From IMG/VR virus record IMGVR_UViG_3300031772_000016, positions 1 through 64,000 of that record: a DNA stretch of 64,000 nt, one strand, 5' to 3'. Position numbers and translations under genes: made by a program. Positions 4,556 through 38,906 of the stretch are shown here, in pieces (the first letter of the stretch is position 1; every line of letters begins with the position of its first letter). The notes under the pieces were generated by a model that was not told where the DNA came from, made no database searches, and worked only from the letters and a program-made list of their open reading frames with translations. The DNA is from a virus.

Positions 4556-6481
4556 ATGGAAGAACCAAAACGTATGCGAACTACAGTAAGAAAGACAGCA
4601 TCGGAGATAGTCCCGGTAAAGAACGGGGATAATGTCCGAGTGTCCAATAAGCTCACTGAAAAAGAGATTGTGGCCAGAAAAATCAGGAAGTACGCTACTA
4701 CGACGTTCGGGTTTAATACGAGGACCGCGGCAGGTACCGGATATAGCTCCGGCGGGTCGATGGACAGCCAGTTCGGTAACTTCTACTCCCCTCAGCTGTC
4801 CACGGACTTCCTGGAAAAACCGCAAAACCAACGTGAACGTAGAGCCTGGTACCGACATTTTTATCACTCCAATGAGTTCGTGGGACAGGCTATCGACCTG
4901 CACTCCACGCTCCCTCTCTCGAAACTCCGACTCGAGAAACCGCATGGTGAGAACCAAGAGCAGTGTGAGTATGTGTATGCGTTCTTCACCGAGATGTGCG
5001 ATGAGATAAAGCTTTTCAAGACCCTACTGGAAATAAGCCACGAGTTCTGGTTACTAGGCTCGTGCACATGCTACTCTGAAGACCATGATCCGTATGAAGT
5101 TACAGATGAGGATGGAGAAGAAAAAGTACGGGAAATGAAGCTCAAGGGTAAAGCAGAAGCAGAGAGACTCTACAAAGAGTTTAAGGTCATAGATAAAGAC
5201 CCTAACTATAAGGGCTTTAGAAAGATTATCATCCTCCCGCCTGATCAGGTGCGTATGAAGAAAATACCCCTGTCAGATGAGAGTATCGTAGAGTTCATCC
5301 CGGAGCCAGAGACGAGAAAATCGATCCTGAACTCCCAGGATCCAAGCTATTATGGCACCGGATCAGATGACGTGCAGAGAAAGATACCCCATATACAGGG
5401 TAAACTCCTGGAACAGCTAAAACAGAGCGGTAGCATCGCTCTGGACACCGACCCGTATAGCGGGTCCCACGTACATTATCTGTGTCGTAAAAAGTGCCAG
5501 TATGAGACCTACGGTGTATCTATCCTCGAGCGCTGCGTAAACACCCTCCTGTATGATGACAAGCTACGTCAGGCTCAGACGTCGATCGCGTCTCGGCATA
5601 TGACTCCCATGCGTGTAGTGTGGGCTGAGGAGCTGTCTGACACGGACGTAGAGAACCTCCGTGAGCAGGTGGACATGGCTTTGACGGACCCTGATTTCTC
5701 GATCGTAGCCAACTACCAGGTAAACTGGCAGGAAATGGGCTCCAACGGTCGTCTGCTGCAGCTCGACAGTGAGCACGAGTACGTAGCGAACTCCCTGTTC
5801 GCGGGACTGGGAGTGACCCGGGAGCTACTGACCGGTGAGGGCACGTACGCTGGTAATAGGATCACGCTGGAGGTACTGAACACACAGTACATGCTGTTTA
5901 GGGAGCAGCTCCAGGAGTACGTGGAGAATAACCTGTTCAAGCCGGTAGCTAAGAAAAAGGGATTCATTGAGAAGGACAAGTACGGTCGTGAGAAGTTGAT
6001 CTACCCTAAACTGAGCTTTACTCGTCTAGCTATCAAGGACAATGATGCGTTCTTTGATCAGGCTATGCAGCTCTACAACAAGGGCTCTATCTCGATCGAT
6101 GTGATCCTGGAGATGCTGAACATAGACCCAGTGTCTACCCGTAAAAAGATAGAGGCTGATCTGTTTACTGTGAACGATTTCGCGTTCAACCAGCTCATGA
6201 CGAACCTGTATGTCGCTACAGCTACTAAACTGGCTGAGGGGTATAGCTCTGCGGATAAGATGGCTGAGTACCTCAAGCTCGACCCACTCCCTCCGCCTCC
6301 GGCGGGTGAGGAGGCAGGTGGAGGTCTGGGAGGGCTCGGCGGTGGAGCGCCGCCTATGGGTAGATTCTCGTCTGTAGGGATGGATAGTAAACGCCAGGCG
6401 GCTTTGACTAAGCTCATGACTATGGCTATGAAGAATCCAGAGAAGATGGACAAGATAGCGGCGTTTTTAGCGAAGAAATAG
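4556..6481 (+). CDS. Portal protein
   Basis: 641 aa, between the terminase domain and head genes; portal-like segments VGQAIDLH, YGVSILER, LFAGLGV, LQEYVENNLFKPVA. Confidence 0.85.
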   Translation: MEEPKRMRTTVRKTASEIVPVKNGDNVRVSNKLTEKEIVARKIRKYATTTFGFNTRTAAGTGYSSGGSMDSQFGNFYSPQLSTDFLEKPQNQRERRAWYRHFYHSNEFVGQAIDLHSTLPLSKLRLEKPHGENQEQCEYVYAFFTEMCDEIKLFKTLLEISHEFWLLGSCTCYSEDHDPYEVTDEDGEEKVREMKLKGKAEAERLYKEFKVIDKDPNYKGFRKIIILPPDQVRMKKIPLSDESIVEFIPEPETRKSILNSQDPSYYGTGSDDVQRKIPHIQGKLLEQLKQSGSIALDTDPYSGSHVHYLCRKKCQYETYGVSILERCVNTLLYDDKLRQAQTSIASRHMTPMRVVWAEELSDTDVENLREQVDMALTDPDFSIVANYQVNWQEMGSNGRLLQLDSEHEYVANSLFAGLGVTRELLTGEGTYAGNRITLEVLNTQYMLFREQLQEYVENNLFKPVAKKKGFIEKDKYGREKLIYPKLSFTRLAIKDNDAFFDQAMQLYNKGSISIDVILEMLNIDPVSTRKKIEADLFTVNDFAFNQLMTNLYVATATKLAEGYSSADKMAEYLKLDPLPPPPAGEEAGGGLGGLGGGAPPMGRFSSVGMDSKRQAALTKLMTMAMKNPEKMDKIAAFLAKK

Positions 6482-14374: not shown

Positions 14375-14485
14375 ATGCTTGCACTGCGTATAAGTACCTA
14401 TCTATTTCTTGTTGATAGATTCCCATAAAATAGCCTGCCAACATGGGTAGCGATCTCTCATCAGCAAGGTTTTTTGCATTTTTAC

Positions 14486-14514
14486 TGGACTCTTGGAGGA
14501 AAGTATAGTATATT
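14486..14514 (+). promoter_or_regulatory. Sigma70-like promoter TGGACT-N17-TATATT
   Basis: 17-bp spacing; -10 element ends 7 nt before ATG 14522, so the mRNA may be leaderless. Confidence 0.6.
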
Positions 14515-14521
14515 ACGAGGT

Positions 14522-17134
14522 ATGAAAGAAACAATCGTGTCTTTAGATGAAGACAGCTTGAAAAAGTTGTACTGTGTATTTGGGCTAACTGCTAGGGAGA
14601 TAGGCAATCTTGTGGGTCTTACAGAGAGTGCTATCTTACTTAGGCTAAAAAAGGTTAACCTAACACCAGGCTGTCGAGCTGTAAGAGATACAGTAGTCGA
14701 GATAGAGTACACTGGACAAAGATTTGATGCTAAAAATCTTTTGACCAAAGAAGCTTTAAATGATCTCGTAAAAAAAGGCATGTCCGACAAAGAAATAGGC
14801 TCTTTGTTTAACATGACTGGAGAGGGTGTCGCTTATAGAAGGAAACAATGGAGTTTATCTTCTGCCAAAGACAACTATAATTCTAGACGTTTGTTGGAGG
14901 CTGCTAGTAAAGAGTCGATAGAGGCAGACTACTATAGCATGACCGTTGACGAGTTTTCCGAAAAATATGCTGTTAGTAAAATAGTTTGGATACCTTATAT
15001 AGACAGCCTAGGGATTGCCAGAAAAAAGGATAAGAGAATAAGTGAGTATCCTGTTCTGACTCCTGAGCAGACTCGTCTAATAATTGGTGGGATGCTGGGT
15101 GATGGAGGTATAACAAACGACGGCAGGTACTATGAGTTTCATGCTAAAAAACAAGAGAATTATCTGAGAAAAAAACACAGAATCCTGGCACCATATAGCA
15201 CGTCTATAACGCCACAGGATGATGGGTCTGGGTTCAGGTTTGACACTATATCTCACCCGGTATTTCATGAGTTTAGAAAACTTTTCTATAAAGAAGGGGT
15301 AAAAGGCAAGTTTATTCCAGTAGATTTTATTGTGAAAAATTGGAGTGATGATATTTTAGCCTATTGGTTTTTTGATGATGGCTATATCGATGATGTAACA
15401 GGCGATATCTGCATCTCCAATTTTTGTCCTGATTTTGATAATTTACGATCTTTGGCCTCTTTTTTAGATGGGAAATATCAGTGGGGGTTTCATTGCGGTA
15501 CGGCAGGGGATAGCATATACCGTGTCTCTGTTTCTAAAGGATATGCCCGTAATTTCGGTAATTTGTTGATAAAGTACGCTACACCCGACGTATACTATAA
15601 AGTGCCTGAAATTTCTTTAACTGTAGATCATGTGAGCGAGCTTACCCTTGAAGAATTCTCTGACATAAAGCCTAAATTTTACAGGCTGACAGATGATGTC
15701 CAAAAGATCTCTATAGAGAACATAGTGTTTGATTACTATAGAAAGAGAGGGTTTCCTTTTTCGACTCTATCTGTTGAACGACAAAATTACATTTTAAAAT
15801 CATTTATGGAGGGGTCAGTATCTTGTTGCAACAACACGATATCATACAGCACGTCAGGGATGCCTCTTTGTGAGAAGTTTTTTCCAAATATATACAAAGC
15901 AAGCAGAAAAGGATATAAGGCACCTTTGGATTTGTGGGATGATGATAATTTCCTTAAATCTTTGATTCGTAATAGGCTCAGATACGCAGACAGACTGACA
16001 ACCGCGGCTATGAGGACTGGCATAAAGCTGACAAAGGCATGTGTCTCCAATTTTAAGCCTACTATAGCTAAGTATGTGTACTCTAATTACTGTTCGAACG
16101 GTAGGGTTCTTGACTACGCTTGCGGTTTCGGGTCAAGGATGCTGGCAGCAATGTCATTAGGCTTGGAGTATGTTGGCTACGAACCTTCTGTGGACACCTA
16201 TGACAACCTTATGAAGTTTGGAGATTTTCTTAGCAGCAGAACCTCTGGTACTTTTAAGATCTTAAACGAGGGTAGTGAAACAGGAATATACAGGGAAGGT
16301 TATTTTAGTTTGGCGTTCTCATCCCCGCCTTATTTTGATTTTGAGTGCTATTCTAATGATCCAGGTCAAAGTGTGGTCAGATTCAGTACATTTGAAGCCT
16401 GGTTAGAGGGTTATTGGAAACAGACTATGATCAATTGCTATAGAGCATTGACACCTGATGGCTTTTTTGGTATGTGTTTCAGTACAAAGGTAGCTAAGGA
16501 GCAGATTGCTTATACTTTGTCTCAGGCTACCGACATTGGCTACTATTATTGTGGAGGGTATAAGGTACCTTTTAAGCAAGTTTTCTCGGGAAGCGACTCT
16601 TATGAGGTTATTTTGATTTTTTCGAAAGTTCCGCCAAAAGAAACCCCTATAGATATAAACAGATTTATTCAAGAGGTACCCTACAAAAAAGAAAGCCTGT
16701 TTAGTGAGGTAAAACGTAATAAAAGAGAATCTAATACCGAGGCTATAAACGAGGCTGTAGTAAAATTCAAGGAGTTGTCCGCTGTTGTGGGTACATCACG
16801 GGACACCTACGATGACCCGAAGCTACTAGGTGTCCCAGCACATGTTTTAGAGCACCATTATGGTGGCTGGAACAGTTTCGTAATAGCTTGTGGAGTAGAG
16901 CCGGGGTACGTCGCAAAGAACCCCGTGGAGCATGTTAAAGAGTATCTGTTGGAGTGTTTGTCGTGTGGGGAGACTCTGTCTTTTTATGAGTATGAGAAGA
17001 GGACGAAGATACCTGCTACGAGGCTCAAGAGAATTTTCAATGCGGGTAGACCGTACGCACATTTGAAAGAGCGACTTTTTTATGTAGCTCTTGACGTGTC
17101 TCTGCATGAAGAGTTTTTGAAGAATTTCGAATAG
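14522..17134 (+). CDS. HTH repeats + LAGLIDADG endonuclease + amino-DNA methyltransferase fusion (paralog 1)
   Basis: LIIGGMLGDGGI and ILAYWFFDDG (two LAGLIDADG helices); VLDYACGFGSR (SAM binding); FSSPPYF (catalytic). Start set at MKETIV. Confidence 0.85.
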   Translation: MKETIVSLDEDSLKKLYCVFGLTAREIGNLVGLTESAILLRLKKVNLTPGCRAVRDTVVEIEYTGQRFDAKNLLTKEALNDLVKKGMSDKEIGSLFNMTGEGVAYRRKQWSLSSAKDNYNSRRLLEAASKESIEADYYSMTVDEFSEKYAVSKIVWIPYIDSLGIARKKDKRISEYPVLTPEQTRLIIGGMLGDGGITNDGRYYEFHAKKQENYLRKKHRILAPYSTSITPQDDGSGFRFDTISHPVFHEFRKLFYKEGVKGKFIPVDFIVKNWSDDILAYWFFDDGYIDDVTGDICISNFCPDFDNLRSLASFLDGKYQWGFHCGTAGDSIYRVSVSKGYARNFGNLLIKYATPDVYYKVPEISLTVDHVSELTLEEFSDIKPKFYRLTDDVQKISIENIVFDYYRKRGFPFSTLSVERQNYILKSFMEGSVSCCNNTISYSTSGMPLCEKFFPNIYKASRKGYKAPLDLWDDDNFLKSLIRNRLRYADRLTTAAMRTGIKLTKACVSNFKPTIAKYVYSNYCSNGRVLDYACGFGSRMLAAMSLGLEYVGYEPSVDTYDNLMKFGDFLSSRTSGTFKILNEGSETGIYREGYFSLAFSSPPYFDFECYSNDPGQSVVRFSTFEAWLEGYWKQTMINCYRALTPDGFFGMCFSTKVAKEQIAYTLSQATDIGYYYCGGYKVPFKQVFSGSDSYEVILIFSKVPPKETPIDINRFIQEVPYKKESLFSEVKRNKRESNTEAINEAVVKFKELSAVVGTSRDTYDDPKLLGVPAHVLEHHYGGWNSFVIACGVEPGYVAKNPVEHVKEYLLECLSCGETLSFYEYEKRTKIPATRLKRIFNAGRPYAHLKERLFYVALDVSLHEEFLKNFE

Positions 17135-21280: not shown

Positions 21281-21499
21281 ATGCCAGATCCAAAAGATTA
21301 CAAGAAATCCGAAAAAGCAAAGTACATGGATGATTGTATGCACACGACCGTGAAGGTCGAGAAGAAGACTCGAGATCATGGTGTAGCACAGTGTTTGGCG
21401 GTTTGGCGGGAGCACCACGAAGATAAGCCCAAACGTAAGAAGTCCGGGACTCACATTATTCTGAAGATTTTAGCACAGAGGTTGGCACAGTATGCGTGA
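21281..21499 (+). CDS. Hypothetical protein
   Basis: MPDP...KYMDDCM...AQCLAVWRE; overlaps the next start. Confidence 0.65.
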   Translation: MPDPKDYKKSEKAKYMDDCMHTTVKVEKKTRDHGVAQCLAVWREHHEDKPKRKKSGTHIILKILAQRLAQYA

Positions 21500-22721
21500 T
21501 ACAGTGTCCTCGAAAATAGAGAAAATAGTCCAGGAAGCCAGAGACTCTGACAAGGTCAAAGTCTTTTTGGGAGGGTCTTGTAAGGATAACTCCTGGCGTG
21601 AGAGTGTTCAGAAGGAGTTTGGGGACTATTTCTTTTTCATCGACCCTTTCGATGAGGATTGGGATCCTGAGGACAATATCTATGACGAGCTCGCGGGTAT
21701 GGTGAACGCTGACTATATCGTGTTCTACAGGGGTGGGGATTTATCAGAGCGTGAGAAGGATTTCCTGGATAATATAGGGCGTAGGGGTGAGTTGGTGAAG
21801 GAGTTTGAGGATATGGGTAAACTCAAGGCATTCCTGAAGGATATCAAGAGTAAGAAGGTGCGGCTGGCGAGTGTGTCCTCTGTACTCCGTAGGTGTGCTG
21901 GGGATTTGTGTAAGGACGCATTCCCGTACACGCATAATCAGGGTGATTTGTTTTTGGAGAAGTTAGATCCTGCCGATAAAGCGAACGTAGTAAAAGACCT
22001 AGAGCGTGGTGTGAGTATAATTATCCCAGAGGGATTACCGGTAAAGCCAGGGAAAAAGACTGTGGGAGAGGTCGTAAATAAGTATGATTTTGATAAGGAG
22101 GAGTATGAGTCTTTTGTACGGCCCGCTCTATATAAGACTTTTCCTGTACTCGAACCTACTCTCGGGTATGACCAAATAAAACACACCTATATGCAAAAGA
22201 ATGCCAAAGTAGGTGTCATCCACAGCAAAGCGTCTACCCAGGTAGATCTCCCAGAGCAGCTCGCCCTGGAGGTCATGGCATGGGGTAAGACGAATATACC
22301 CGATAAGGATCTATACACAAAGGACGACAAAGGTCGTGAGGACGAGATTCACGTTACTTTGTTCTATGGTATCACAGAGGATGCCGAGGATAAACTACGT
22401 GAGCTGCTATCTGGGGTGAAACCGTTTGAGTGTCGTCTGGGGCTTGTCACTACGTTCAAGGATAAGAAAGAGTGTGACGTCATCAAGATAGACGTAGAGT
22501 CTTCGGAGATGGTGAAACTCCATTATTTGATCCGTGAGAGTGTAAAGAACAAGAATGAATATCCTACATACGCCTCCCATATCACGGTGGCGTACGTGAA
22601 AAAAGGTAAAGCAGATAGAGTACTGGGTGATGATAGGTTCCGGGGAGCGACATTCAAGGTCACTGAGATAGTTTACTCGACGAAAGATCACAATAAAATA
22701 AAGATCCCACTCGGGTCATAA
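21492..22721 (+). CDS. Nucleoside 2-deoxyribosyltransferase-like domain fused to a 2H phosphoesterase (T4 57B/Acb1-like)
   Basis: N-terminal KVFLGGSC...WRE...DPF; C-terminal two HxT motifs, EIHVTLFYG and SHITVAY. Confidence 0.75.
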   Translation: MRDTVSSKIEKIVQEARDSDKVKVFLGGSCKDNSWRESVQKEFGDYFFFIDPFDEDWDPEDNIYDELAGMVNADYIVFYRGGDLSEREKDFLDNIGRRGELVKEFEDMGKLKAFLKDIKSKKVRLASVSSVLRRCAGDLCKDAFPYTHNQGDLFLEKLDPADKANVVKDLERGVSIIIPEGLPVKPGKKTVGEVVNKYDFDKEEYESFVRPALYKTFPVLEPTLGYDQIKHTYMQKNAKVGVIHSKASTQVDLPEQLALEVMAWGKTNIPDKDLYTKDDKGREDEIHVTLFYGITEDAEDKLRELLSGVKPFECRLGLVTTFKDKKECDVIKIDVESSEMVKLHYLIRESVKNKNEYPTYASHITVAYVKKGKADRVLGDDRFRGATFKVTEIVYSTKDHNKIKIPLGS

Positions 22722-25666: not shown

Positions 25667-25957
25667 ATGACATCATATCAGATTGAATATCCTATATCAG
25701 ATCTTAAAAAAGCTGTGCAGGCAGGGTTTGCGTACATGGAGTCCATGGACAACATCGTGGGCACTATCTACGCCTCCCCGGCTGTGGTAAAACAGCTTGT
25801 GTTGAGTATGCCGGACGACATCCATTTTGACTATATCCCAGAGGGTATAGGCATGCTGCGCACAGCATACCTGAAGTTCATGCCTTCTGTGAAAGAGAAT
25901 GAGATCCGGTTTTTCAATCAGGATAAAACAGTAGAGCTACGATTATATCTTAAATAA
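25667..25957 (+). CDS. Hypothetical protein
   Basis: Start re-assigned to MTSYQ (RBS GAGGAG); C-terminus resembles a capsid-like small domain (weak). Confidence 0.6.
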   Translation: MTSYQIEYPISDLKKAVQAGFAYMESMDNIVGTIYASPAVVKQLVLSMPDDIHFDYIPEGIGMLRTAYLKFMPSVKENEIRFFNQDKTVELRLYLK

Positions 25958-25980
25958 CATTTTGTCAAGGAGAGTGTCCT

Positions 25981-26433
25981 TTGCCCACTTACGAGTACGC
26001 CTGTAGCGAGTGCGAGACTGTAGTAGAGATTGTCCATTCTATCAAAGAGGATCCTGTAATGGTGTGCGAGATATGTAAGCGTGAGGGTAAGCTCCACCCT
26101 ATGGAGCGTCAGATCTCCAACAACATAGGAGGGTTCATCATTAAAGGGTGGACTGAGGCTATGGCATGGAAGACGAAACGAGATAAGATGAAGACGGGTG
26201 CTGAGCTCGGGGTTAAGCAGATAGAGCGGTACTCCAACAGTGCTCGATTGCAGCCTAATGTGGCTGGTATGGAGGTGGAGTCCTGGAGTGATGCTCAGAA
26301 GGTAGCGAAAGAGGCTGGGTTGAGGCCTGAGACGTACGAGCCTATCATAGAGAAAGAAAAAAAGATCAGCAAGATCTCTGGAGTAGACGATACCAAGTGG
26401 AAAGCCGCTAAGGCGGAGGCTGGTAAGATCTAA
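25981..26433 (+). CDS. FmdB-family zinc-ribbon protein
   Basis: MPTYEYACSEC...CEIC; RBS AAGGAG. Confidence 0.85.
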   Translation: MPTYEYACSECETVVEIVHSIKEDPVMVCEICKREGKLHPMERQISNNIGGFIIKGWTEAMAWKTKRDKMKTGAELGVKQIERYSNSARLQPNVAGMEVESWSDAQKVAKEAGLRPETYEPIIEKEKKISKISGVDDTKWKAAKAEAGKI

Positions 26434-26460
26434 AAAAGTATATAGTCTGGTGTGCGAGAG

Positions 26461-26491
26461 AGCCTCGGATTTAACGATCCGGGGCTTTTTT
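26461..26491 (+). terminator. Intrinsic terminator
   Basis: AGCCTCGGAT/ATCCGGGGCT stem plus T run. Confidence 0.8.
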
Positions 26492-26493
26492 AG

Positions 26494-26509
26494 TAATAGT
26501 CTATTAATA
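26494..26509 (+). promoter_or_regulatory. TAATA-N6-TAATA motif
   Basis: TAATAGTCTATTAATA, directly after the terminator and upstream of 26566. Confidence 0.7.
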
Positions 26510-26565
26510 TTTCATCTGTATGTGATACACACGGTTGTTTCAAAGCCTACAACGAGGAGTGCCGT

Positions 26566-26895
26566 ATGCGTAAGAAGATCAGCAAACGTGCTAAAGAGAG
26601 CCCTGTAATCAATCTTGTGTGGGCGGAAGAGCTTAATGATGCTGAGTTGAAAGCCCTCCGAAAGATGGTGGAAAAAGCTATAAAAGATCCTGATAGTCCT
26701 ATTGTATCTAATTATGAAATACATTGGGATAGGATCCGTATAGATAAAAAAGCAGTAGCCAGGGTAGTGTGGTCGAATGTGCTCAGTGATAAAGATGTCG
26801 ATAGTCTATCGAATGAAGTAGAGAAAGCGTTGAAAGACCCCAACTATGTCATCGTAGTAAATTACCCGGTGTATTGGATTGAAATCTCCAAATAG
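26566..26895 (+). CDS. Small protein made of two tandem copies of a portal-protein segment
   Basis: Repeats match portal residues 353-391 at 19/39 and 21/39 identities with no gaps; RBS GAGGAG. Confidence 0.85.
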   Translation: MRKKISKRAKESPVINLVWAEELNDAELKALRKMVEKAIKDPDSPIVSNYEIHWDRIRIDKKAVARVVWSNVLSDKDVDSLSNEVEKALKDPNYVIVVNYPVYWIEISK

Positions 26896-26910
26896 ATAGG
26901 AAATGATAAT

Positions 26911-27087
26911 ATGGAACGAGTAAATTTCCACCTCACAGACGGAGAGCGTAAAGGTCTGGAGATGCTCTCAGAGATCACTGGGGTGAAGAAAGCGGAGCTG
27001 ATCCGTAGGGCTATCGATGAGTATATCAAGAGGAAGAAGTGGGAAGGTGTCACGGGACTCTCAGAACTGAAGGAGATATTCGCATGA
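26911..27087 (+). CDS. Ribbon-helix-helix protein (58 aa, not in ORF track)
   Basis: MERVNFHLTDGERKGLEMLSEITGVKKAELIRRAIDEYIKRKK...; ATGA overlap with the glycosyltransferase start. Confidence 0.8.
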   Translation: MERVNFHLTDGERKGLEMLSEITGVKKAELIRRAIDEYIKRKKWEGVTGLSELKEIFA

Positions 27088-30000
27088 GCAAGAAGTTTTT
27101 GGGCCTGAATATCATCGTAGGTAAGGGTGAGGAGAAAGAGCTGGAACGCTGTTTAAAGAGCTGTACTCAGGGAGAGCTCTTCGATGAGATGGTAGTGACC
27201 CAGACATTTGAGGATGAAAACGTACGTGCAGTCATAGAGAAGTACGGGGCTCGACGGGAGTTCTTTGCTTGGGTGAAGGATTTCAGCCTTGCCCGTAACA
27301 AATCTTTCAGCCATAGTACCTCTGAGATGATAATTTGGCTGGACAGTGATGACGTGATCAAACCAGACGATTTCAAGAAGCTCCAGGAGCTGAAACCGAA
27401 GATCAAAGATTTTGACATCGTACTCATCGACTATGTATACAATCACGATGAGAGAGATAATGCTACTTTGGTGCTCCCCAGAGAGCGTATCGTAAGAAAC
27501 TGTGATTACATCAAGTGGCATGATCCCATCCATGAGTATCTGAACATGGATGTCCCTCCGAACAAGATCCTCAAGACAAAAATTAAAATCGATCATTACC
27601 GGGTAAAAAATTATGATCCTAGTAGAAACCTGGACGCTCTGAGACTGGCGTATGGAGAGGGAAAATGCTCCCCTCGCCTGAAATTCTATTTCGGAAAAGA
27701 GCTCTCGGACTGTGGGTACTGGGAAGAGGCTATCAAAGTCCTCGAACCCTACATAGAGGAGGGTGTGGATTTCCGGGATAACATGACTGTAGCGTGTATC
27801 CGATTGAGCAAGTACTACTACGAAAACAAGAACTACGCAGCGGCAAAAACATATGCTATGAAGGGCATCCGGTTCAATAGCATATACGCTGAAAACTACG
27901 TGACTGTAGCTACCATATTCGAGATAGAGAATGACCTCGACTCTGCTGCGAGCTATTACAAGGAAGCTCTCACGAAGAAACTCGACGCGGGTATGTCACA
28001 GATCGTGGATTTTTATGGGTTCATACCAGCAGCGAAGTTGGCTATCCTGTATTTCGCTAAGAAGGAGTATGAGGAGTGCCTGAAGTATTGCGACATAGCT
28101 CTGCAGCATAAGTCAGATAACGTCCAGATAGCAGAGCTGAAGAAGACTGTGAGTATCGAAACAGAGCGCATGAAGAAGGGTAGTACGATACGTGAGGAAG
28201 ATGAGGCCAGATTGCGTAAGATGCTCGAGGAGCTCGATTTCAAGATAGACATACAGAAGAATAACCATGAGTATGCTGAGATCAGACTGTCTCGTATCAG
28301 AAAGCTCGAGGTAGTGTGGTTGGTGCCTACACTGGACCTCGACAACCCATCTATCCGTATCCGTAGGTATAACGTATCGAAGAAGATGGAGGAGCTCAAG
28401 GTACCCAGCAGGATCATCACAAATTACTATGGTAGGAACGTATTTGACCTCAGAAATGAGATAGGTCCTGCTACTGTGGTAGTGTTCACGCAGTACAGCA
28501 GTTTTGACCTGGAACTCATGCGTCACCTCAAGCCTCTGGGTATCAAGACGGTGTTTGATCACTGTGAGGCTATATTCGGGTACCCGTTTGAGCATGAGTG
28601 TATGATAGAGGCAGACCTGGTGGCGTGTTGCTCTACAAAGCTGGAGGAGCTGACCAATAAAAATGGTGTAGCTCGTACCGCGGTGTTGAAAGATGCGGTG
28701 GAAGAGCGTGTACCGTCTACAGAGAGAGTGTATACGGATAGGTATCTTAAACCTAAAGCTGGTTATTTTGGCATGGGAGGCAATAGCTTCCTTATTTCTG
28801 AGTGGTTGAAAGATACCATAGAATCTGCTGGGTATGATGTTGTTTTGAGCACTGAATGGAGTAGTGCCACCCATAAATGGTCCATAGATACGTGGCCTGA
28901 CGTGATGAATGAGTGTGATGTCATACTATGCCCTCAGCGAGTAGACGTGCAGCCTGCTAAGAGTAGCGTGAAAGCGACCACAGCGATGGCGTTAGGGATG
29001 CCTGTCCTCGCATCTCCCCTACAGGCCTACAAAGAGGTTATACAGCCTGGTGTGAATGGGTACATCTGTGACACCAAGGATGATTGGTATTCGGCTCTGG
29101 TGCAATTGAAAGACTCCAATCTGAGGAAATCGGTAGGTACCGCGGCTAAAAAGGCTGTGGATGGATACTCACTGGAGAATATCACTAAAGGGTGGATAGA
29201 GACTCTGGGTCATCTCATCAATGAGAGATTGAAATTCCCGGAGCCAGAGGTAGTGGAAAAGGTGGCTGAGCGTAACATCGTAGATATCATCATCGCCAAC
29301 TACGGTAATGTAGAGTATCTGAAGATGTGCATGAGCTCTATTTTCATGAATACGCTGTATCCGTATCACGTCATCATATCTGACGCGGGTAGTGATGAGA
29401 AGACGTGGGAGTATCTGAAAACACTCAAAGGGGTGACGATACTCGGTGAGCCTGGTAAGAGAGTGTCTTTTTCGGAAGCGTGTAATGCAGGTATACAGGC
29501 GTCCAGGACAAAGTTCTTTGTTATCCTGAACTCTGACGTGATAGTATCCAAGTGCTGGCTCACGAGTCTCGTGGACAAGATGGAGCATACGGATAGGCTC
29601 GCAGCGTGTGGAGTGCTGAGTAATTGTGATCGCGGCTGGCTTTTTAGTGCACCTGGTAAACCAGAGTACCCTATGCGTTTAGAGAAGTCTGGGGTAGATC
29701 TCGTACCTGGTATGAAGATAGGTACTATACAGCCTCATGTGGAAGAGCTGTATGATTTCATGAAGAAATCTAATGAGACCTACAAAGGTAAGTACATCAA
29801 GCAGGATTGGGTGGCGGCGTATGCTACTATATTCGCTCGATGCGCGATCGATGAAGTGGGGTTATTCGATACCCAGTACAAAAATGGGTGTGAGGACTGG
29901 GATCTCTGCCAGCGTATCTCTCGATATGGGTACGCGATAGGACAGGCTATAGATTCGTTTGTGTATCATTTTGGCGGGGTGACTAGAGGTAGCTATGAGG

Positions 30001-32384
30001 AAGAGAACAAAGAATCCTATAAAAAAGAGGATATGGAGAATCACATCAAGATGCGCCGTAAGTGGGATAAAGAGCGCGTAGTGATTTATACGGGTCCTGC
30101 TTGGGAAAGTTGGAACAAGCAGAAAGTAGACGAGGGCATGGCGGGGTCGGAGACGTGGGCGGCATATCTGGCACGGGAGTTTGTGAAGAAAGGGTATCGT
30201 ACCACGATCTACAATGATCTACTGGTAGAGGACAAGAGTCAGGCAGTGTTGGACCCGGTACAGGATGACTCAGGTAAATCGGTAGGTGATGTGTTTTATC
30301 GTCACTACACGAATTTGAATGAGGATGTGAAATACGATGTGGTGGATTATTTCATATCGTCACGTACACTGGATCCTTTTCAGGGTAATGTACACAGTCT
30401 GAAGAATTATGCGATGATCCATGATGTGTTTTTAAATCCTAACCCTGATTTTGATATCATGCCATGGAGGATACACGGGTATGCGTATCTATCGGAGTGG
30501 CACAAGGATTTTCTTAAGAGCCACCACAGGATGCCTGAGGATAAAATGTTCCTCACGGCAAATGGCGTAGACCACACTCTGTATGCTGACGTGGATACCT
30601 ACGAGAAGAAAAACCAGACTGTGTATAGTTCGAGTTTGGATAGAGGGTTGTATCAGCTGCTGTTGATGCTACCAGAGATCAGGAAATCTGTGCCTGATTT
30701 CAAGGTGATAGTGTGTTATGGTCTGCTCAACTGGGAAAAAAGTATAAAGGCTCACAATGATGTCCAGTCCATGGAGTTACTCAATAAGATAAAGAGTCTG
30801 ATGGAACAACCGGGGGTAGAGTATCGTGGTCGTGTAGACAAGAAGACGTTGTCTATTTTACAGAAGGAATCCAAGGTGTTCTTGTTTTCGAGCTGGTTCG
30901 CGGAAACTTTTTGCTGTCATCCAGATAATGAAATATTCACTGAAAAAGGACCTAAGAGGATTGTGTCTTTGAACATAGTTGATAGGGTACTTACTCATAA
31001 CAATAGGTTTAGGAACATAACTAAGATACTATCAAGACCGTATTCCGGGGATCTTGTTAAGTTTAATGTTCAGAACCATAAAGCAGGCACGGGTATGTAC
31101 ACTCCAGAGCATCCAGTGCTAGTCTTGAGAGGCGGCAATGTTTCAAAACTGAGAAGTAATAGGAGCTTTATTAAGTTAGGTAAAAAACCAGACTATTCTC
31201 CTAAAAGCATAGCAAAATACGATATAGATCCAGAGTGGGTTGAAGCAGGGGATGTTTTAGCGGGAGATTACGTATGCATGCCGTACTGTGATGACCGCAG
31301 CCCAGATGACTGGTTTTATCCGTTGGAGGATATGAAACGCGTTAATAGGAATTACAAAATAGTAGGAGAGCATATAATAAGTAGGGAGTCAAAAATTTTC
31401 AAGAGATTGCCAGCTAAAATAAAGATGGACTTCGATTTTGCGAGATTTCTTGGTTTCTATTTCTCTGAGGGATGTTTTAGTGGAGGGTGCGTAAAATTTT
31501 CGTTTAACACCAAAGAGACAGAATACATTAATTTTGTTTCTTCCTATGCTGATAGAGTTTTTGGAGTTAAACCTAAAATAAAAAATAGAGGAAATTGGGT
31601 TGAGATATGGTGCTACATGAATTCTATGGGTATACTTCTTAAAGAGCTGTGTGGTCATGAGGCTTCTCAAAAGAAGGTTCCCTATTTCATGTATCGGCAG
31701 GATAAGAGTTTTGTCAGAGAGTTTGTACGCGCTGTATTTGAGGGGGATGGCCATGAGAACAAGAATGAGTTTACAATGGTGCTAGCAACAAAGAAGGGAA
31801 TGGTAGGCCTTAAGATACTGGCAGCCAGCATAGGCCTTCACCCTAGCTACAGGAATTCTCCTCGTTTCGGAAGAGATTACTATACTATGGGTATCAGCAA
31901 GAAGTTATGGAGTGATCTTTTTGTGGGAAAAAAAGACTACGGCCCGAAAGGTACTTATAGGGTCTATTTTGAGAGGAATTCGAAAATTTTCTACAAGATC
32001 AAAAGTATCGATAAAGTTCCTTATGTTGGACCCGTGTATAATTTAGAGGTGGAAGAAGATCAGTCGTATACATCGGACTTTATCGCTGTCCATAATTGCT
32101 GTACTGCGGTTGAGAACGGGTTGTCAAAAAACCCTATACTCTCTACAGACTTCGCAGGGCTGAAAACCACTGTAGGATCTGCGGGGATACTGTTGCCGTA
32201 TGAGGGCCTGTCTCGGGACGCGGACTATCCTGATACGTATAAATTTCGTTTCGTAGAGGAGTCCATACGCCTACTCAAGGATGACACCTATCGTGCTGAG
32301 TGGGCGGATAAAGCCTACCAGAAGATGCAGGCCTATAGGTGGGATAAGGTCGCAGACGGGTGGATAGAGAAGTTCAAGAAGTAG
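27084..32384 (+). CDS. Multi-domain glycosyltransferase (GT2-TPR-GT-B-GT2-GT-B) containing an intein
   Basis: WLDSDD (GT-A DxD); TPR-like repeats; KATTAMALGMPVLASP...GVNGY (GT-B); ISDAGS/LNSDV/EDWDL (GT2); ETF|CCTAVE (E-x7-E). Start MSKKF with RBS AAGGAG. Confidence 0.9.
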   Translation: MSKKFLGLNIIVGKGEEKELERCLKSCTQGELFDEMVVTQTFEDENVRAVIEKYGARREFFAWVKDFSLARNKSFSHSTSEMIIWLDSDDVIKPDDFKKLQELKPKIKDFDIVLIDYVYNHDERDNATLVLPRERIVRNCDYIKWHDPIHEYLNMDVPPNKILKTKIKIDHYRVKNYDPSRNLDALRLAYGEGKCSPRLKFYFGKELSDCGYWEEAIKVLEPYIEEGVDFRDNMTVACIRLSKYYYENKNYAAAKTYAMKGIRFNSIYAENYVTVATIFEIENDLDSAASYYKEALTKKLDAGMSQIVDFYGFIPAAKLAILYFAKKEYEECLKYCDIALQHKSDNVQIAELKKTVSIETERMKKGSTIREEDEARLRKMLEELDFKIDIQKNNHEYAEIRLSRIRKLEVVWLVPTLDLDNPSIRIRRYNVSKKMEELKVPSRIITNYYGRNVFDLRNEIGPATVVVFTQYSSFDLELMRHLKPLGIKTVFDHCEAIFGYPFEHECMIEADLVACCSTKLEELTNKNGVARTAVLKDAVEERVPSTERVYTDRYLKPKAGYFGMGGNSFLISEWLKDTIESAGYDVVLSTEWSSATHKWSIDTWPDVMNECDVILCPQRVDVQPAKSSVKATTAMALGMPVLASPLQAYKEVIQPGVNGYICDTKDDWYSALVQLKDSNLRKSVGTAAKKAVDGYSLENITKGWIETLGHLINERLKFPEPEVVEKVAERNIVDIIIANYGNVEYLKMCMSSIFMNTLYPYHVIISDAGSDEKTWEYLKTLKGVTILGEPGKRVSFSEACNAGIQASRTKFFVILNSDVIVSKCWLTSLVDKMEHTDRLAACGVLSNCDRGWLFSAPGKPEYPMRLEKSGVDLVPGMKIGTIQPHVEELYDFMKKSNETYKGKYIKQDWVAAYATIFARCAIDEVGLFDTQYKNGCEDWDLCQRISRYGYAIGQAIDSFVYHFGGVTRGSYEEENKESYKKEDMENHIKMRRKWDKERVVIYTGPAWESWNKQKVDEGMAGSETWAAYLAREFVKKGYRTTIYNDLLVEDKSQAVLDPVQDDSGKSVGDVFYRHYTNLNEDVKYDVVDYFISSRTLDPFQGNVHSLKNYAMIHDVFLNPNPDFDIMPWRIHGYAYLSEWHKDFLKSHHRMPEDKMFLTANGVDHTLYADVDTYEKKNQTVYSSSLDRGLYQLLLMLPEIRKSVPDFKVIVCYGLLNWEKSIKAHNDVQSMELLNKIKSLMEQPGVEYRGRVDKKTLSILQKESKVFLFSSWFAETFCCHPDNEIFTEKGPKRIVSLNIVDRVLTHNNRFRNITKILSRPYSGDLVKFNVQNHKAGTGMYTPEHPVLVLRGGNVSKLRSNRSFIKLGKKPDYSPKSIAKYDIDPEWVEAGDVLAGDYVCMPYCDDRSPDDWFYPLEDMKRVNRNYKIVGEHIISRESKIFKRLPAKIKMDFDFARFLGFYFSEGCFSGGCVKFSFNTKETEYINFVSSYADRVFGVKPKIKNRGNWVEIWCYMNSMGILLKELCGHEASQKKVPYFMYRQDKSFVREFVRAVFEGDGHENKNEFTMVLATKKGMVGLKILAASIGLHPSYRNSPRFGRDYYTMGISKKLWSDLFVGKKDYGPKGTYRVYFERNSKIFYKIKSIDKVPYVGPVYNLEVEEDQSYTSDFIAVHNCCTAVENGLSKNPILSTDFAGLKTTVGSAGILLPYEGLSRDADYPDTYKFRFVEESIRLLKDDTYRAEWADKAYQKMQAYRWDKVADGWIEKFKK
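30912..32096 (+). mobile_element. Intein with LAGLIDADG endonuclease (395 aa)
   Basis: Starts CCHPDNEI; TPEHPV block B; FLGFYFSEG and AVFEGDG; VYNLEVE; ends VHN before Cys. Confidence 0.95.
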
Positions 32385-36580: not shown

Positions 36581-36609
36581 TTGACTTTAGTCCGGTATTG
36601 TGGTATATT
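36581..36609 (+). promoter_or_regulatory. Sigma70-like promoter TTGACT-N17-TATATT with extended -10 TG
   Basis: Near-consensus, upstream of RBS GGAGG and ATG 36630. Confidence 0.8.
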
Positions 36610-36629
36610 CAGTAGTACTGGAGGCCACA

Positions 36630-38906
36630 ATGACCGGACCAAAAAGTGGAATTACTGCGGACAGAAAAGACACCGTCAAGTTGGGTTTCATTGTAGAGCA
36701 CTACAGCTCTATGTCTCGTGATGAGCTTGCCTCTCACTTGAAAGAGACTCCCCGTTGGATAAAGCGACAAATAAGGCTTCTTAAAGACTCCGGAAGAATC
36801 CAGCCTAAGCGATTAGTCCCCGAGCGTATACTTTCGGAATCAGATTGGACAGATGAAATAAAGCATAAGGCGATCTCTCTCAGGAGAGATCGCCTTATGT
36901 CGACTGGTGCTATTTGTGAGGTGCTTGAAAAAGAGTTTTCTTTTGCCGTACCAGACTATACGTTAGAGTTCTGGTTCAGGAAATTTGGGTGTGAGTCCAG
37001 AAGTAAGCTGGATTGGCTGGAAGAGTTTTTTCCTCCTAATAAAATGATAGAGTTCATAGACAGCGACTACAGAGTAAAGGATATCAGTGATATCATTCTA
37101 AAGACTCATGGAGTATATATATCTGATGATATCGTACAAGAATATCTGCAATCGAAAGGAATAGAGAGTCAGCGAAACAGGCAGGTCAGGTTAGTGCGTG
37201 ACAAAGCTAGTGAATTTTCTAAAGAGTGGTTGAGTGATCAGGTACAGGGTCATGCAGGGTTGTCCGGGTTGACCGAAAAAATGGGTGTGTCTAAAACAGT
37301 GGTGATGAATAGACTGAGAGAAGAGGGACTCAGTCTGATTAAGCATAGAAAAATATGGTCTGATAATTTGGAGACTCTCAGCGATCTTATGGCGGCACGA
37401 CCCCCTATTACAAAAAAGATATCTGAAGAAGATAGACACCAGATGCTTTTGGGATGGTTGCTTGGAGACGGCCATTTAGATTTTAACGGTAGATTAGTTG
37501 TTAATCACTCGCTTGCACAGATAAGCTATTTGTTTGTCAAACATCAGGTGCTGAGGGGCAGCGTGTCTAATATAGTTACTGTACCGTCATCACATTTTTC
37601 GGGAGAGGGAACTCATTTTGGAGGTAAAGAGCAGATAGGGATATCGTGCCCTGGGTTTGAGTCGTATGTTCAATACCTGAACGAGGACGGGTCAAAAAAT
37701 TTTGATAAAATAGTGCGTGAACTTAACGACCTTGGGTGGGCATGCTATTTTATGGATGATGGAAGCTATTTTTTTGATAAGCAAATAATGGCTATAAATG
37801 GTAGATTAGCTGCTGAGTTTGAAAATAGATACCAATTTGGCAGCATAGTGCATGAGCATAATTTGGAGGTGTTCGGTATAAAGCCAGAGTATCTAATACC
37901 TTGTATGTTGTATAAAACACCCGTGGAAAGCAGAAATCTCGGCAATTATTGGGAAACAATATTTCCCGAACTGTTCAACGTGTCTATAAAAGATGATCTG
38001 GATCTTAGCTTCGTGAACAGGCATGTAGCAGAAAATGTGCCTGGCATAATGACCCAGGTTGTGGAGTACTATCACGGTAGAGGGTTTCCTGTGTACCACA
38101 TCGCGGATGTGTATCTTACAAAGGAGTGGGAAAAGCTACAAAAGTTCAAAGCTGATCTGTTGTGGAAAAACGACAATACAATGCGCTATCTGGCTGTGGG
38201 TAATGCTCTATACAAGCATTTCATGCCGCACATGTCTGAGGCGAAGTACAGAAACGTATCCCCAAAGCAAACATTCGATAGCTTTTCTACATTCTTGACC
38301 GTTCTGGAGTATACCCTTAAAACCAAGAAATCCATACTGCCTGATTTTGTGCACGACAACCTCGTGCATTTTAATGGGGGTGTGGTCGGTTTCCCTTGTT
38401 CGGTAGCCAAGGCTGTTACAGATCGGTATTGTCCTGTAGGAGGGTCTGTTGTAGACCCTTGCGCTGGGTGGGGTGGTCGTCTGCTGGGTGTGTCGTCTGC
38501 AGGTAGGTTTTACTACGGATTCGAGCCGTGGGACAAGACCTACGATGGTTTGACTCGTATCATAGCACACTTTGGTCTGAACTCTTCTGTGCAGAAGTCT
38601 GAGTTTGATAGTACCAAAGCACCCCTTCTGTGTGATTTTATCCTCACGTCCCCGCCTTATGTGGATCTGGAGATATACGGTAGACCCTTTAGCAAAAGTG
38701 ACTGGCTGTCACTAATTAAACGCATATTCAGTTATGCAGAGAAGAGCCTTACTCCTGGCGGGTACTTAATACTTAACCTGCCCGGGTATCTTAAAACATT
38801 GTTGCCTCAAACTCTCCTCAAGGAAGCAGCGCCTGTATATTGGAATACATCCTCCAAAGTAAGAACCCTCGATAAAGCGGAATGCCTGTACATCTGGCAC
38901 AGGTAA
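36630..38906 (+). CDS. HTH repeats + LAGLIDADG endonuclease + amino-DNA methyltransferase fusion (paralog 2)
   Basis: MLLGWLLGDGHL and WACYFMDDG; YYHGRGFP; VVDPCAGWGGRLLG; LTSPPYVDLE. Confidence 0.85.
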   Translation: MTGPKSGITADRKDTVKLGFIVEHYSSMSRDELASHLKETPRWIKRQIRLLKDSGRIQPKRLVPERILSESDWTDEIKHKAISLRRDRLMSTGAICEVLEKEFSFAVPDYTLEFWFRKFGCESRSKLDWLEEFFPPNKMIEFIDSDYRVKDISDIILKTHGVYISDDIVQEYLQSKGIESQRNRQVRLVRDKASEFSKEWLSDQVQGHAGLSGLTEKMGVSKTVVMNRLREEGLSLIKHRKIWSDNLETLSDLMAARPPITKKISEEDRHQMLLGWLLGDGHLDFNGRLVVNHSLAQISYLFVKHQVLRGSVSNIVTVPSSHFSGEGTHFGGKEQIGISCPGFESYVQYLNEDGSKNFDKIVRELNDLGWACYFMDDGSYFFDKQIMAINGRLAAEFENRYQFGSIVHEHNLEVFGIKPEYLIPCMLYKTPVESRNLGNYWETIFPELFNVSIKDDLDLSFVNRHVAENVPGIMTQVVEYYHGRGFPVYHIADVYLTKEWEKLQKFKADLLWKNDNTMRYLAVGNALYKHFMPHMSEAKYRNVSPKQTFDSFSTFLTVLEYTLKTKKSILPDFVHDNLVHFNGGVVGFPCSVAKAVTDRYCPVGGSVVDPCAGWGGRLLGVSSAGRFYYGFEPWDKTYDGLTRIIAHFGLNSSVQKSEFDSTKAPLLCDFILTSPPYVDLEIYGRPFSKSDWLSLIKRIFSYAEKSLTPGGYLILNLPGYLKTLLPQTLLKEAAPVYWNTSSKVRTLDKAECLYIWHR

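What the first reader, a model, noticed from the sequence alone, without database searches (positions are those of the whole stretch)
26566..26895. Stand-alone mini-protein built from two copies of the phage's own portal clip-like segment
Seen: portal residues 353-391 (nt 5612-5728) RVVWAEELSDTDVENLREQVDMALTDPDFSIVANYQVNW align without gaps to repeat 1 NLVWAEELNDAELKALRKMVEKAIKDPDSPIVSNYEIHW (19/39) and repeat 2 RVVWSNVLSDKDVDSLSNEVEKALKDPNYVIVVNYPVYW (21/39). The gene lies 21 kb from the portal with its own promoter motif and RBS. It is diverged but intact, so it does not look like debris. Established: the portal clip (beta-alpha-beta after a stem helix) docks terminase and the neck adaptor, and Avs4-type STAND sensors detect portal. 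Inference: the segment is the clip, and the tandem mimics two adjacent portal subunits. It could be an immune decoy, a terminase/adaptor titrator, or an inhibitor of rival phage or satellite packaging.
Basis: partly seen in the sequence, partly recalled or inferred. Interest (0 to 1): 0.9.

Follow-up and report, generated by a model that had tools for sequence, protein, structure and literature searches.

The report
Stand-alone tandem portal-clip mini-protein
An uncultured giant phage from sediment carries a small, conserved gene whose protein is two copies of the exposed "clip" tip of its DNA-entry portal; it belongs to a large unnamed family and probably ties up something that grips that tip, but no function has been tested.

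Summary
ORF 26566-26895 (109 aa) has two 39-residue repeats that match portal residues 353-391 at 19/39 and 21/39 without gaps (best of 100 shuffles: 11). BLASTP gives E 1e-12 for each repeat, and profile-profile comparison gives 99.2% probability.

An AlphaFold2 model of the portal (top structural matches all portals) places the segment between the two stem helices, which is the clip.

The gene is real and old:
- Syntenic 109-aa orthologues share 66-80% identity, with dN/dS 0.10-0.24.
- A scan of 1.84 billion representative proteins found 43 two-repeat clusters, at least three three-repeat clusters and four membrane-anchored single-repeat clusters.
- Repeat spacing is fixed at about 50 residues.
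- No Pfam, PHROG or PDB sequence match exists, and I found no paper describing such proteins.

The gene is accessory. It is present in two related giant-phage records and absent from one complete 470-kb genome.

It opens an operon: terminator, then an invariant palindromic block, then the mini-protein, a ribbon-helix-helix regulator and a giant glycosyltransferase.

No function is shown. My best guess is a soluble clip mimic that competes for a clip-binding partner. Capping of portal subunits is the main rival.

This scan has noted analogous stand-alone clip genes in other phage lineages. Those notes are unchecked here.

The parts
26566..26895 (+). Gene for the 109-aa tandem clip-like mini-protein (P0001), stop codon included
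   Evidence: ORF and translation. Orthologues of the same length at 66-80% identity. dN/dS 0.10-0.24.
26566..26601 (+). Basic N-terminal tail, residues 1-12 (MRKKISKRAKES; 6 K/R)
   Evidence: The tail has 6 K/R in 12 residues, while the rest of the protein has pI 5.1. Basic N-termini recur in many family members.
26602..26736 (+). Clip-like repeat 1, residues 13-57
   Evidence: HMM domain 13-57. BLASTP to portal 352-394, E 2e-12. 19/39 identities to the portal clip.
26752..26886 (+). Clip-like repeat 2, residues 63-107
   Evidence: HMM domain 63-107. BLASTP to the portal, E 1e-12. 21/39 identities.
26453..26495 (+). Intrinsic-terminator-like hairpin with U-run, between the zinc-ribbon gene and the mini-protein gene
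   Evidence: RNA fold dG -23.9 kcal/mol, z -4.17, matched by 0 of 200 shuffles. The stem is kept in L033 through paired changes on both arms.
26493..26532 (+). Invariant 40-nt upstream block with two small palindromes (TAATAgTcTATTA, GTATgtgATAC); a candidate operator or promoter
   Evidence: Almost every base is identical in four relatives whose synonymous sites are near saturation. It occurs once in the window.
26554..26559 (+). Ribosome-binding site GAGGAG, 6 nt before the ATG
   Evidence: Read directly from the sequence. AGG(A/G)G is kept in the relatives.
26911..27087 (+). 58-aa ribbon-helix-helix gene, 15 nt after the mini-protein stop
   Evidence: Pfam RHH_3 (E 2.9e-5) and RHH_1 (E 4.3e-4), both above their cut-offs. 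Conserved in L031 and L032.
27084..32384 (+). Giant multi-domain glycosyltransferase with an intein; its ATG overlaps the RHH stop codon (ATGA)
   Evidence: Sequence read. Pfam GT2, GT1, TPR, Intein_splicing and LAGLIDADG_3.
4556..6481 (+). Portal protein gene (641 aa)
   Evidence: phrog_16240 portal, E 1.2e-34. AlphaFold2 model whose top Foldseek matches are all portal proteins, probability 1.00.
5594..5752 (+).
   Evidence: It lies between stem helices H323-346 and H403-418 and contains helix 362-377. It is the region that both repeats match.

Best explanation
The ORF encodes a real, selected 12.7-kDa protein. It has a short basic tail followed by two ~45-residue beta-alpha-beta-beta modules. 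Each module is homologous to the portal clip. The clip is the tip that protrudes from the capsid. The packaging ATPase and the neck dock on it, some bacterial immune sensors dock on it, and its strands zip neighbouring portal subunits together.

Shown:
- Homology to the clip.
- Membership of a large unnamed family with 1-3 repeats at a fixed ~50-residue period.
- Purifying selection.
- Patchy (accessory) distribution.
- Position as the first gene of an operon behind a terminator and a conserved palindromic block.

Inferred: the protein is a soluble two-unit replica of the clip rim that competes with the real portal for a clip-binding partner. Among possible partners I favour a host clip-directed sensor of the SpbK type. 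Such a sensor is activated by clustering on the 12-fold clip ring, so a two-unit sponge could bind it without clustering it. I rank the phage's own terminase or neck protein lower.
For: - Homology: BLASTP E 1e-12 and 2e-12. hhalign 99.2%, E 2e-19. 19/39 and 21/39 identities against a shuffle maximum of 11.
- Clip identity: the portal model's topology and its matches to portal structures, read against the published definition and partners of the clip. In T4 the clip is exposed outside the capsid, binds gp17 and gp13, and forms an inter-subunit three-stranded sheet (PMC4493910).
- A sensor that docks on the clip helix exists: SpbK on the SPbeta portal YonE (PMC12847820). Other portal sensors are Avs4 (PMC12642450) and RAZR (PMC13017515).
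- Family size and form: 78 representative hits, including 43 two-repeat clusters. 39 of 49 repeat spacings are 49-51 residues.
- Selection: dN/dS 0.10-0.24. The gene's dN is about 40 times that of the upstream gene and about 5 times that of the downstream gene. Helix faces evolve 2-4 times faster than strands.
- Accessory distribution: present in G000 and G006, absent from the complete genome G003 and not found in nine partial records with the same portal family. None was found in 50,697 phage records.
- Operon form resembles small anti-defence gene plus regulator loci: terminator, invariant palindromic block, an RHH gene right after the mini-protein, and an RHH gene right before the L037 homologue.
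- An Acb1-like 2H phosphoesterase gene lies 4 kb upstream.
Against: - No binding of any kind is shown.
- Charged positions that are invariant in portal clips (R369, Q371, D373, D380, E388, H390, E393) are only partly kept. About 10 of 18 portal-invariant positions survive per repeat. The docking surface is therefore not faithfully copied.
- What is best conserved is the strands and the DP-turn. That fits fold maintenance or strand-zipper contacts equally well.
- dN/dS is below 1 everywhere, so there is no signal of positive selection.
- The RHH neighbours in the two lineages are not detectably related, and three other genomic contexts have no regulator.
- The monomer model is of low confidence.
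- The host and its defence systems are unknown.
- A mimic that bound the phage's own terminase or neck protein would harm its own packaging.
Confidence: 0.38

Rival explanations
1. Portal-subunit binder. The free strand edges of the tandem pair with the clip strands of unassembled portal protomers. The protein would then cap, chaperone or time ring assembly of its own portal, or poison the nearly identical portal of a co-infecting rival giant phage.
For: - In T4 the clip sheet is the only main-chain to main-chain contact between portal subunits and is thought to contribute much of the assembly energy (PMC4493910).
- The best-conserved positions in the mini-protein family are the strands (VW, I-V-x-N-Y-x-V-x-W) and the DP turn.
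- Portal clips in this clade are almost invariant, so one binder could fit many rivals.
- Both the portal clip and the mini-protein are modelled with low confidence as monomers, as expected if their strands need a partner.
Against: - The gene is absent from a complete related genome, so it is not needed for portal assembly.
- Strand conservation is also required simply to keep the fold.
- Poisoning would hit the phage's own portal too.
- No co-fold could be run.
Confidence: 0.25
2. Self-assembling clip-like ring or arc. For example, six tandems, four triples or twelve membrane-anchored singles would each give twelve units. Such an assembly could serve as a structural or scaffolding piece at the portal vertex, or as a full ring decoy.
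For: - Family members have 1, 2 or 3 repeats, all divisors of 12.
- The repeat period is strictly ~50 residues.
- A tandem built from strand-exchanging modules keeps one free donor edge and one free acceptor edge. This is inference from PMC4493910.
Against: - Its accessory, patchy distribution argues against a core virion part.
- The gene lies among non-structural genes in every context seen.
- Self-association could not be tested.
Confidence: 0.1
3. The clip fold has been reused for an unrelated task. It might act as a partner or co-regulator of the adjacent RHH protein (a toxin-antitoxin-like or regulatory pair), or as a factor linked to the downstream glycosyltransferase.
For: - The mini-protein, RHH and glycosyltransferase genes are tightly packed, with a 15-nt gap and then an ATGA overlap.
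- L037 has a 123-aa RHH protein whose gene overlaps the start of its mini-protein gene, which is a type II toxin-antitoxin-like layout.
- Both RHH proteins give weak RelB-like antitoxin hits.
Against: - The RelB-like hits are far below cut-off (17 bits against 50).
- There is no toxin, defence or other family hit for the mini-protein in Pfam, NCBIfam or PADLOC.
- The two RHH proteins are not similar to each other.
- Three other contexts (L035, L036, L048) have neither an RHH gene nor a glycosyltransferase gene.
Confidence: 0.12
4. Non-functional remnant of a partial portal duplication.
For: The protein is small and matches no named family.
Against: - The reading frame is intact and of the same length in relatives whose synonymous sites are saturated, with dN/dS 0.10-0.24.
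- There are dozens of diverged clusters with the same two-repeat plan.
- It has its own RBS, and its upstream element is conserved.
Confidence: 0.02

Closest known systems
Clip domain of tailed-phage portal proteins (e.g. T4 gp20 residues 279-358; PMC4493910)
   Same: Each repeat is homologous in sequence to the clip of this phage's portal family. The predicted order of elements is the same: strand, helix, strand(s). The hydrophobic strand residues, the DP turn and the N-Y pair are retained.
   Different: The mini-protein has no wing, stem or crown. It carries two copies in one chain instead of one copy per subunit of a 12-mer. It has a basic N-terminal tail. Only about half of the portal-invariant surface residues are kept. 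It is a separate accessory gene 21 kb from the portal.
SPbeta portal YonE clip as docking platform for the TIR sensor SpbK (PMC12847820)
   Same: This work shows that the clip helix is a surface read by bacterial immunity. That is the kind of partner a soluble clip copy could soak up.
   Different: No SpbK-like or other sensor is known for this phage's host, which is itself unknown. No interaction was tested here. YonE belongs to a different portal sequence family.
Anti-defence operons made of a small fast-evolving gene plus a small DNA-binding regulator (the acr-aca type). This comparison rests on my own knowledge and was not checked in a paper here.
   Same: A small accessory gene leads an operon behind a conserved palindromic element and sits next to a ribbon-helix-helix gene. 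It evolves much faster than its neighbours.
   Different: No anti-defence activity is shown. The regulator linkage is seen in only two of five contexts. The same operon also carries a giant glycosyltransferase.
Stand-alone portal-clip mini-genes noted earlier in this scan in other phage lineages (T4-like, HK97-like, crAss-like and other jumbo phages). These are unchecked AI notes.
   Same: The theme is the same: a small, conserved, patchily distributed gene that copies only the portal clip, with no known function.
   Different: Those cases are mostly single ~60-100-aa clip copies, sometimes as arrays of separate genes, and derive from other portal families. Here two (elsewhere three) copies are fused in one polypeptide with a fixed period, and relatives include membrane-anchored forms.

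Membership tests
Portal protein (tailed-phage portal fold): the 641-aa protein P0002 | Wing-stem-clip-crown fold that matches solved portals | tested here: met
   phrog_16240 portal at E 1.2e-34. The AlphaFold2 model's top Foldseek matches are all portals, E down to 1.6e-8 and probability 1.00.
Portal clip domain: the matched portal segment 353-391 | Lies between the two stem helices, ahead of the tunnel loop and the long wing helix | tested here: met
   Model elements in order: H323-346, then 347-399 containing helix 362-377, then H403-418, a short loop, and H434-468. The definition is taken from PMC4493910 and PMC12847820.
Portal clip domain: the mini-protein repeats | Significant sequence homology to clip segments | tested here: met
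   BLASTP E 1e-12 and 2e-12. hhalign 99.2% probability, E 2e-19.
Portal clip domain: the mini-protein repeats | Strand-helix-strand(s) secondary structure | tested here: inconclusive
   The model shows E14-18, H25-40, E66-68, H75-90 and E95-99, but mean pLDDT is only 44.
Portal clip domain: the mini-protein repeats | Strand pairing between neighbouring units, as in the three-stranded inter-subunit sheet of the portal ring | not testable with these tools
Portal protein: the mini-protein itself | Possession of wing, stem and crown domains | tested here: not met
   The protein is 109 aa and consists only of a tail plus two clip-like repeats. It is therefore a clip-derived protein, not a portal.
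Phage anti-defence decoy or sponge | Binds and neutralises a host immune protein | not testable with these tools
   The host and its sensor are unknown, and no complex prediction was available.
Phage anti-defence decoy or sponge | Accessory, patchy distribution and faster evolution than neighbouring genes | tested here: met
   Present in 2 of 12 related records and absent from the complete genome G003. Between the window and L031, dN is 0.124 for this gene against 0.003 and 0.026 for its neighbours.
Type II toxin-antitoxin pair (RHH antitoxin plus toxin) | Toxin and antitoxin each belong to known families above cut-off | tested here: not met
   The mini-protein matches no family. The RHH protein hits the RelB-like model at 17 bits against a cut-off of 50.
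Named protein families (Pfam, PHROGs, NCBIfam, PADLOC, PDB sequences) | Any family-level match for the 39 aligned family members | tested here: not met
   0 of 39 members match any PHROG. There is no shared Pfam family and no PDB sequence hit below E 0.3.

The most novel reading that the evidence does not exclude
Soluble clip-repeat proteins are a general class of phage counter-defence that has arisen repeatedly. By copying only the portal's exposed clip, in two- or three-unit pieces that cannot form the 12-fold platform, they would soak up clip-directed immune sensors (SpbK-like, perhaps Avs4- or RAZR-like) without letting them cluster and fire. The membrane-anchored single-repeat relatives would do the same at the membrane.
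Probability: 0.22. Interest if true: 0.85.

Novelty: new variant of a known kind. Interest (0 to 1): 0.62.

Why it matters
The portal clip is the hub of tailed-phage assembly, because both the packaging motor and the neck dock on it. Recent work shows that it is also read by bacterial immunity.

A widespread, selected family of free clip copies has no family name and, as far as my searches reach, no paper describing it. That suggests phages manipulate clip-mediated contacts with dedicated small proteins. The purpose could be to blunt immunity, to time portal assembly or packaging, or to sabotage rival phages.

The family gives a concrete set of small proteins with which to test each idea in ordinary co-expression and binding assays. 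It also provides natural minimal clip modules for structural work.

Tried and rejected
I had planned three copies of the mini-protein, or mini-protein plus portal. No statement about binding can therefore be made.
Contexts of most family members, including those on 138-kb and 151-kb contigs, could not be fetched.
- An AlphaFold2 monomer from the 5-sequence alignment gave pLDDT 44. I did not use it for fold searches. The second structure job went to the portal.
- A tree of 129 repeat units was largely unresolved because it had only 45 columns. I use it only for branch lengths and for label clustering.
- There were no family hits in Pfam, PHROGs, NCBIfam or PADLOC.
- The ESM Atlas gave no usable hit.
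- PDB sequence profile searches with the portal family and with the mini-protein family gave nothing meaningful.
- IMG/VR pattern scans with P0016, P0038, P0007, P0013 and P0008 found nothing. The alignment A4 was too diverse to scan with.
- The scan of GTDB genome contigs found no relative.
- No RNA holder was listed among the sequencing runs.
- The sigma-70 scan found no promoter in the 75 nt upstream, and the simple terminator scan missed the hairpin that folding shows.
- The C-terminal R(Y/F)(D/Q)IL(K/R) motif and the N-terminal MGRYE(V/L)ALGK motif of some relatives were not found in other ORFs of the held loci, except one in L036.
- The window's RHH protein and the L037 RHH protein show no similarity to each other.
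- Pfam Terminase_6N gave no hit in the 74.8-kb record, so no cognate terminase was on hand.
- Gao et al. 2022 (Avs4-portal structure) and the Dedeo et al. portal review are not held. How Avs4 contacts the clip therefore could not be checked.

Full report
**What is there.**
The plus-strand ORF 26566-26895 encodes a 109-aa protein. The 641-aa ORF 4556-6481 is the portal. It matches phrog_16240 "portal protein" at E 1.2e-34. Its AlphaFold2 model (mean pLDDT 67) has portal proteins as all top Foldseek matches, at probability 1.00. These include Pakpunavirus P7-1, HFTV1, E217, lambda and T4.

The quoted ungapped alignments are exact: portal 353-391 vs repeat 1 gives 19/39, vs repeat 2 gives 21/39, and repeat 1 vs repeat 2 gives 17/39. 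The best 39-mer in 100 shuffles reached 11. BLASTP gives E 2e-12 and 1e-12 for the two repeats against portal 352-394. A profile of 39 family members against a profile of 25 portals gives 99.2% probability and E 2e-19.

**Is the portal segment the clip?**
In the portal model the order of elements is as follows:
- helix 323-346;
- a stretch 347-399 that contains helix 362-377 and has low-confidence flanks;
- helix 403-418;
- a short loop;
- a long helix 434-468.

This is the canonical order: stem helix, clip, stem helix, tunnel loop, long wing helix. The T4 gp20 paper defines the clip as the domain that connects the two stem helices. It has three strands and one helix and is exposed outside the capsid. 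It is the attachment site of the packaging ATPase gp17 and of the neck protein gp13. It is held to its neighbour by a three-stranded sheet made from one strand of one subunit and two strands of the next (PMC4493910). The SPbeta YonE paper gives the same description (PMC12847820).

A residue-level superposition on a solved portal was not possible. The clip flanks have low confidence in the monomer model. That is expected for strands that pair only across subunits.

**The gene is real, old and part of a large family.**
- Four cluster representatives of exactly 109 aa share 66-80% identity with it.
- Their contigs (L031-L034) are syntenic. Each has an FmdB-type zinc-ribbon gene, then the mini-protein, an RHH gene and a giant glycosyltransferase.
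- Pairwise dN/dS is 0.10-0.24, with dS of 0.5 to about 3.
- More distant stand-alone two-repeat proteins at 41-50% identity lie in quite different contexts: L035, L036 and L037, and L048 inside a 466.7-kb, 98%-complete phage record, 38 kb from its portal.
- An exhaustive phmmer search of 1.84 billion representatives returned 78 hits. A repeat HMM splits them into 43 short proteins with two repeats, 20 long proteins with one repeat (portals, some enlarged by ~500-aa insertions), and 17 short one-repeat hits. At least three short proteins have three repeats, and inspection suggests three more.
- Among the short one-repeat hits are four proteins with an N-terminal membrane helix (P0038, P0044, P0047, P0060).
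- The spacing between successive repeats is 49-51 residues in 39 of 49 cases. This points to a fixed geometry between modules.
- None of the 39 aligned members matches any PHROG, there is no shared Pfam family, and there is no PDB sequence match.
- My literature searches found no description of free clip-domain proteins.

**Not a recent copy of its own portal.**
Portal clips of this clade are nearly invariant and sit on very short branches. The mini-protein repeats sit on long branches. Repeats 1 and 2 of the window protein group with repeats 1 and 2 of its orthologues, not with the window's portal (the tree is otherwise unresolved).

Column-by-column comparison shows what the family keeps and what it loses:
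- Kept: the strand residues (V-W; I-V-x-N-Y-x-V/I-x-W), a helix leucine and alanine, and the D-P-x-Y turn.
- Relaxed: charged positions that never vary in portals (R369, Q371, D373, D380, E388, H390, E393), especially in repeat 2.

Each repeat of the window protein keeps about 10 of 18 portal-invariant positions. Among the close orthologues, helix segments have dN/dS 0.2-0.47 and strands plus linker have 0.06-0.2. The fold is under constraint and the helix faces change fast, but nothing exceeds 1.

**Distribution.**
The same family profile finds only the portal in ten other giant-phage records that carry this portal family. One of these is a complete 469,617-bp genome with terminal repeats; the others are 30-78% complete. 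The profile finds portal plus mini-protein in G006 and in the window's own record.

tblastn against 50,697 deposited phage genomes hits only the portal of a 485-kb uncultured phage. No relative occurs in one genome per prokaryote species. The gene is therefore accessory.

The window's record is 74.8 kb and is estimated to be 16% complete. The phage is thus roughly 450 kb. It has a tail sheath and a prohead protease and occurs in many sediment metagenomes.

**Local anatomy.**
- A strong hairpin with a U-run at 26453-26495 (dG -23.9 kcal/mol, z -4.2) follows the zinc-ribbon gene.
- A block at 26493-26532 follows. Almost every base is identical in four relatives whose synonymous sites are saturated. 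It contains two small palindromes and is unique in the window.
- No sigma-70-like promoter is recognisable there.
- GAGGAG sits 6 nt before the ATG.
- The RHH gene starts 15 nt after the mini-protein stop. Its own stop overlaps the ATG of the 1766-aa glycosyltransferase-intein protein as ATGA.

The mini-protein is therefore the first gene of a tight operon behind a likely regulated promoter.

In L037 an unrelated RHH gene overlaps the start of that contig's mini-protein gene. The other three contexts have no such neighbour. An Acb1-like 2H phosphoesterase fusion lies 4 kb upstream in the window.

**How it most likely works.**
Homology, selection, family and anatomy are shown. Everything about function is inference.

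Two clip modules joined at a fixed period would most simply reproduce a 60-degree arc of the clip rim. Such a piece could do one of three things:
- (a) compete with the portal for a protein that grips the clip;
- (b) use its free strand edges to pair with portal protomers;
- (c) chain with itself.

I rank (a) first at about 0.38. The gene is dispensable in close relatives, evolves far faster than its neighbours, changes most on the helix faces, and has the operon form typical of small counter-defence genes. In addition, a TIR sensor, SpbK, is now known to dock on the clip helix and to fire by clustering on the 12-fold ring (PMC12847820). A two-unit copy could bind such a sensor without clustering it. 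Avs4 and RAZR also sense portals (PMC12642450, PMC13017515). Where they contact the portal could not be checked here.

Against (a), the portal's invariant surface is only half retained, and no partner is known.

Option (b) gets about 0.25. It is favoured by the strand conservation and by the membrane-anchored relatives. These recall the membrane-bound start of T4 portal assembly, in which the clip becomes accessible only after the prohead is released from the membrane (PMC9958956).

Option (c) and a role tied to the RHH gene or the glycosyltransferase are less likely. Debris is excluded.

**Relation to earlier notes of this scan.**
A word search shows that this scan has already flagged stand-alone clip-like mini-genes in several other phage lineages: T4-like, HK97-like, crAss-like and other jumbo phages. 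Follow-up agents reached the same kind of verdict each time: real, conserved, function untested. Those are unchecked AI notes on other DNA, and I did not test them.

They suggest the theme is recurrent. The present case differs in three ways. It fuses two modules in one chain. Its family also has three-repeat and membrane-anchored forms. It derives from a different portal family.

**Limits.**
The only model of the mini-protein is of low confidence. The host is unknown, and no expression data exist.

Noticed in passing
window 26453-26532: A terminator hairpin is followed by a 40-nt block that is almost invariant in four relatives with saturated synonymous sites. The block holds two palindromes (TAATAgTcTATTA, GTATgtgATAC) and occurs once in the window. 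It is a likely operator for the operon, perhaps bound by the RHH protein encoded two genes on.
   Followed up: partly
window 26911-27087 and 27084-32384: The 58-aa RHH gene is translationally coupled (ATGA overlap) to a 1766-aa protein. That protein has GT2-TPR, GT1/GT4 and GT2 modules plus an intein with a LAGLIDADG domain.
   Followed up: partly
P0038, P0044, P0047, P0060 (proteins): These relatives have one clip-like repeat behind an N-terminal membrane helix. A disordered acidic tail follows, ending in an R(Y/F)(D/Q)IL(K/R) motif. The same C-terminal motif ends the two-repeat members P0016, P0026 and P0032. Their repeats are the most portal-like of the short proteins.
   Followed up: partly
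P0007, P0008, P0015, P0031; L036 125-586: Several family members carry an N-terminal extension that starts MGRYE(V/L)ALGK or similar. The same start opens an unrelated DUF6794 protein encoded next to the L036 homologue. It may be a shared targeting or processing signal.
   Followed up: partly
portal homologues in L002, L012, L013, L016, L024, L028 and P0041-P0079: Portals of 980-1500 aa in this family carry ~500-aa insertions at two hot spots. These correspond to window portal residues ~170 (GSC|TCY) and ~327 (ILERC|VNT); L024 has both. They are probably inteins. The second site lies about 25 residues before the clip. The window's own portal has neither insertion.
   Followed up: partly
L048 6930-8303 (record G006, 466.7 kb): In a near-complete giant-phage genome the two-repeat homologue starts 10 nt after a Volactin-family actin-like gene (PF25216, E 2.4e-64). 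A NUDIX hydrolase gene follows two genes later.
   Followed up: no
window 21492-22721: A 409-aa protein has an N-terminal nucleoside 2-deoxyribosyltransferase-like domain and a C-terminal 2H phosphoesterase domain. The latter gives a weak Acb1 (anti-CBASS) hit. The gene lies 4 kb upstream of the mini-protein gene.
   Followed up: partly
window 14474-17134 and 36600-38906: Two large ORFs share hits to a LAGLIDADG homing-endonuclease family and to phrog_12517. The first also hits a DNA methyltransferase family. They are possible mobile endonuclease-methylase fusions.
   Followed up: no
window 25900-27400: At least 16 sediment-metagenome runs from different studies hold half or more of the sampled words of this stretch. 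The phage, or close relatives, therefore recurs in that habitat. No RNA run is listed.
   Followed up: no
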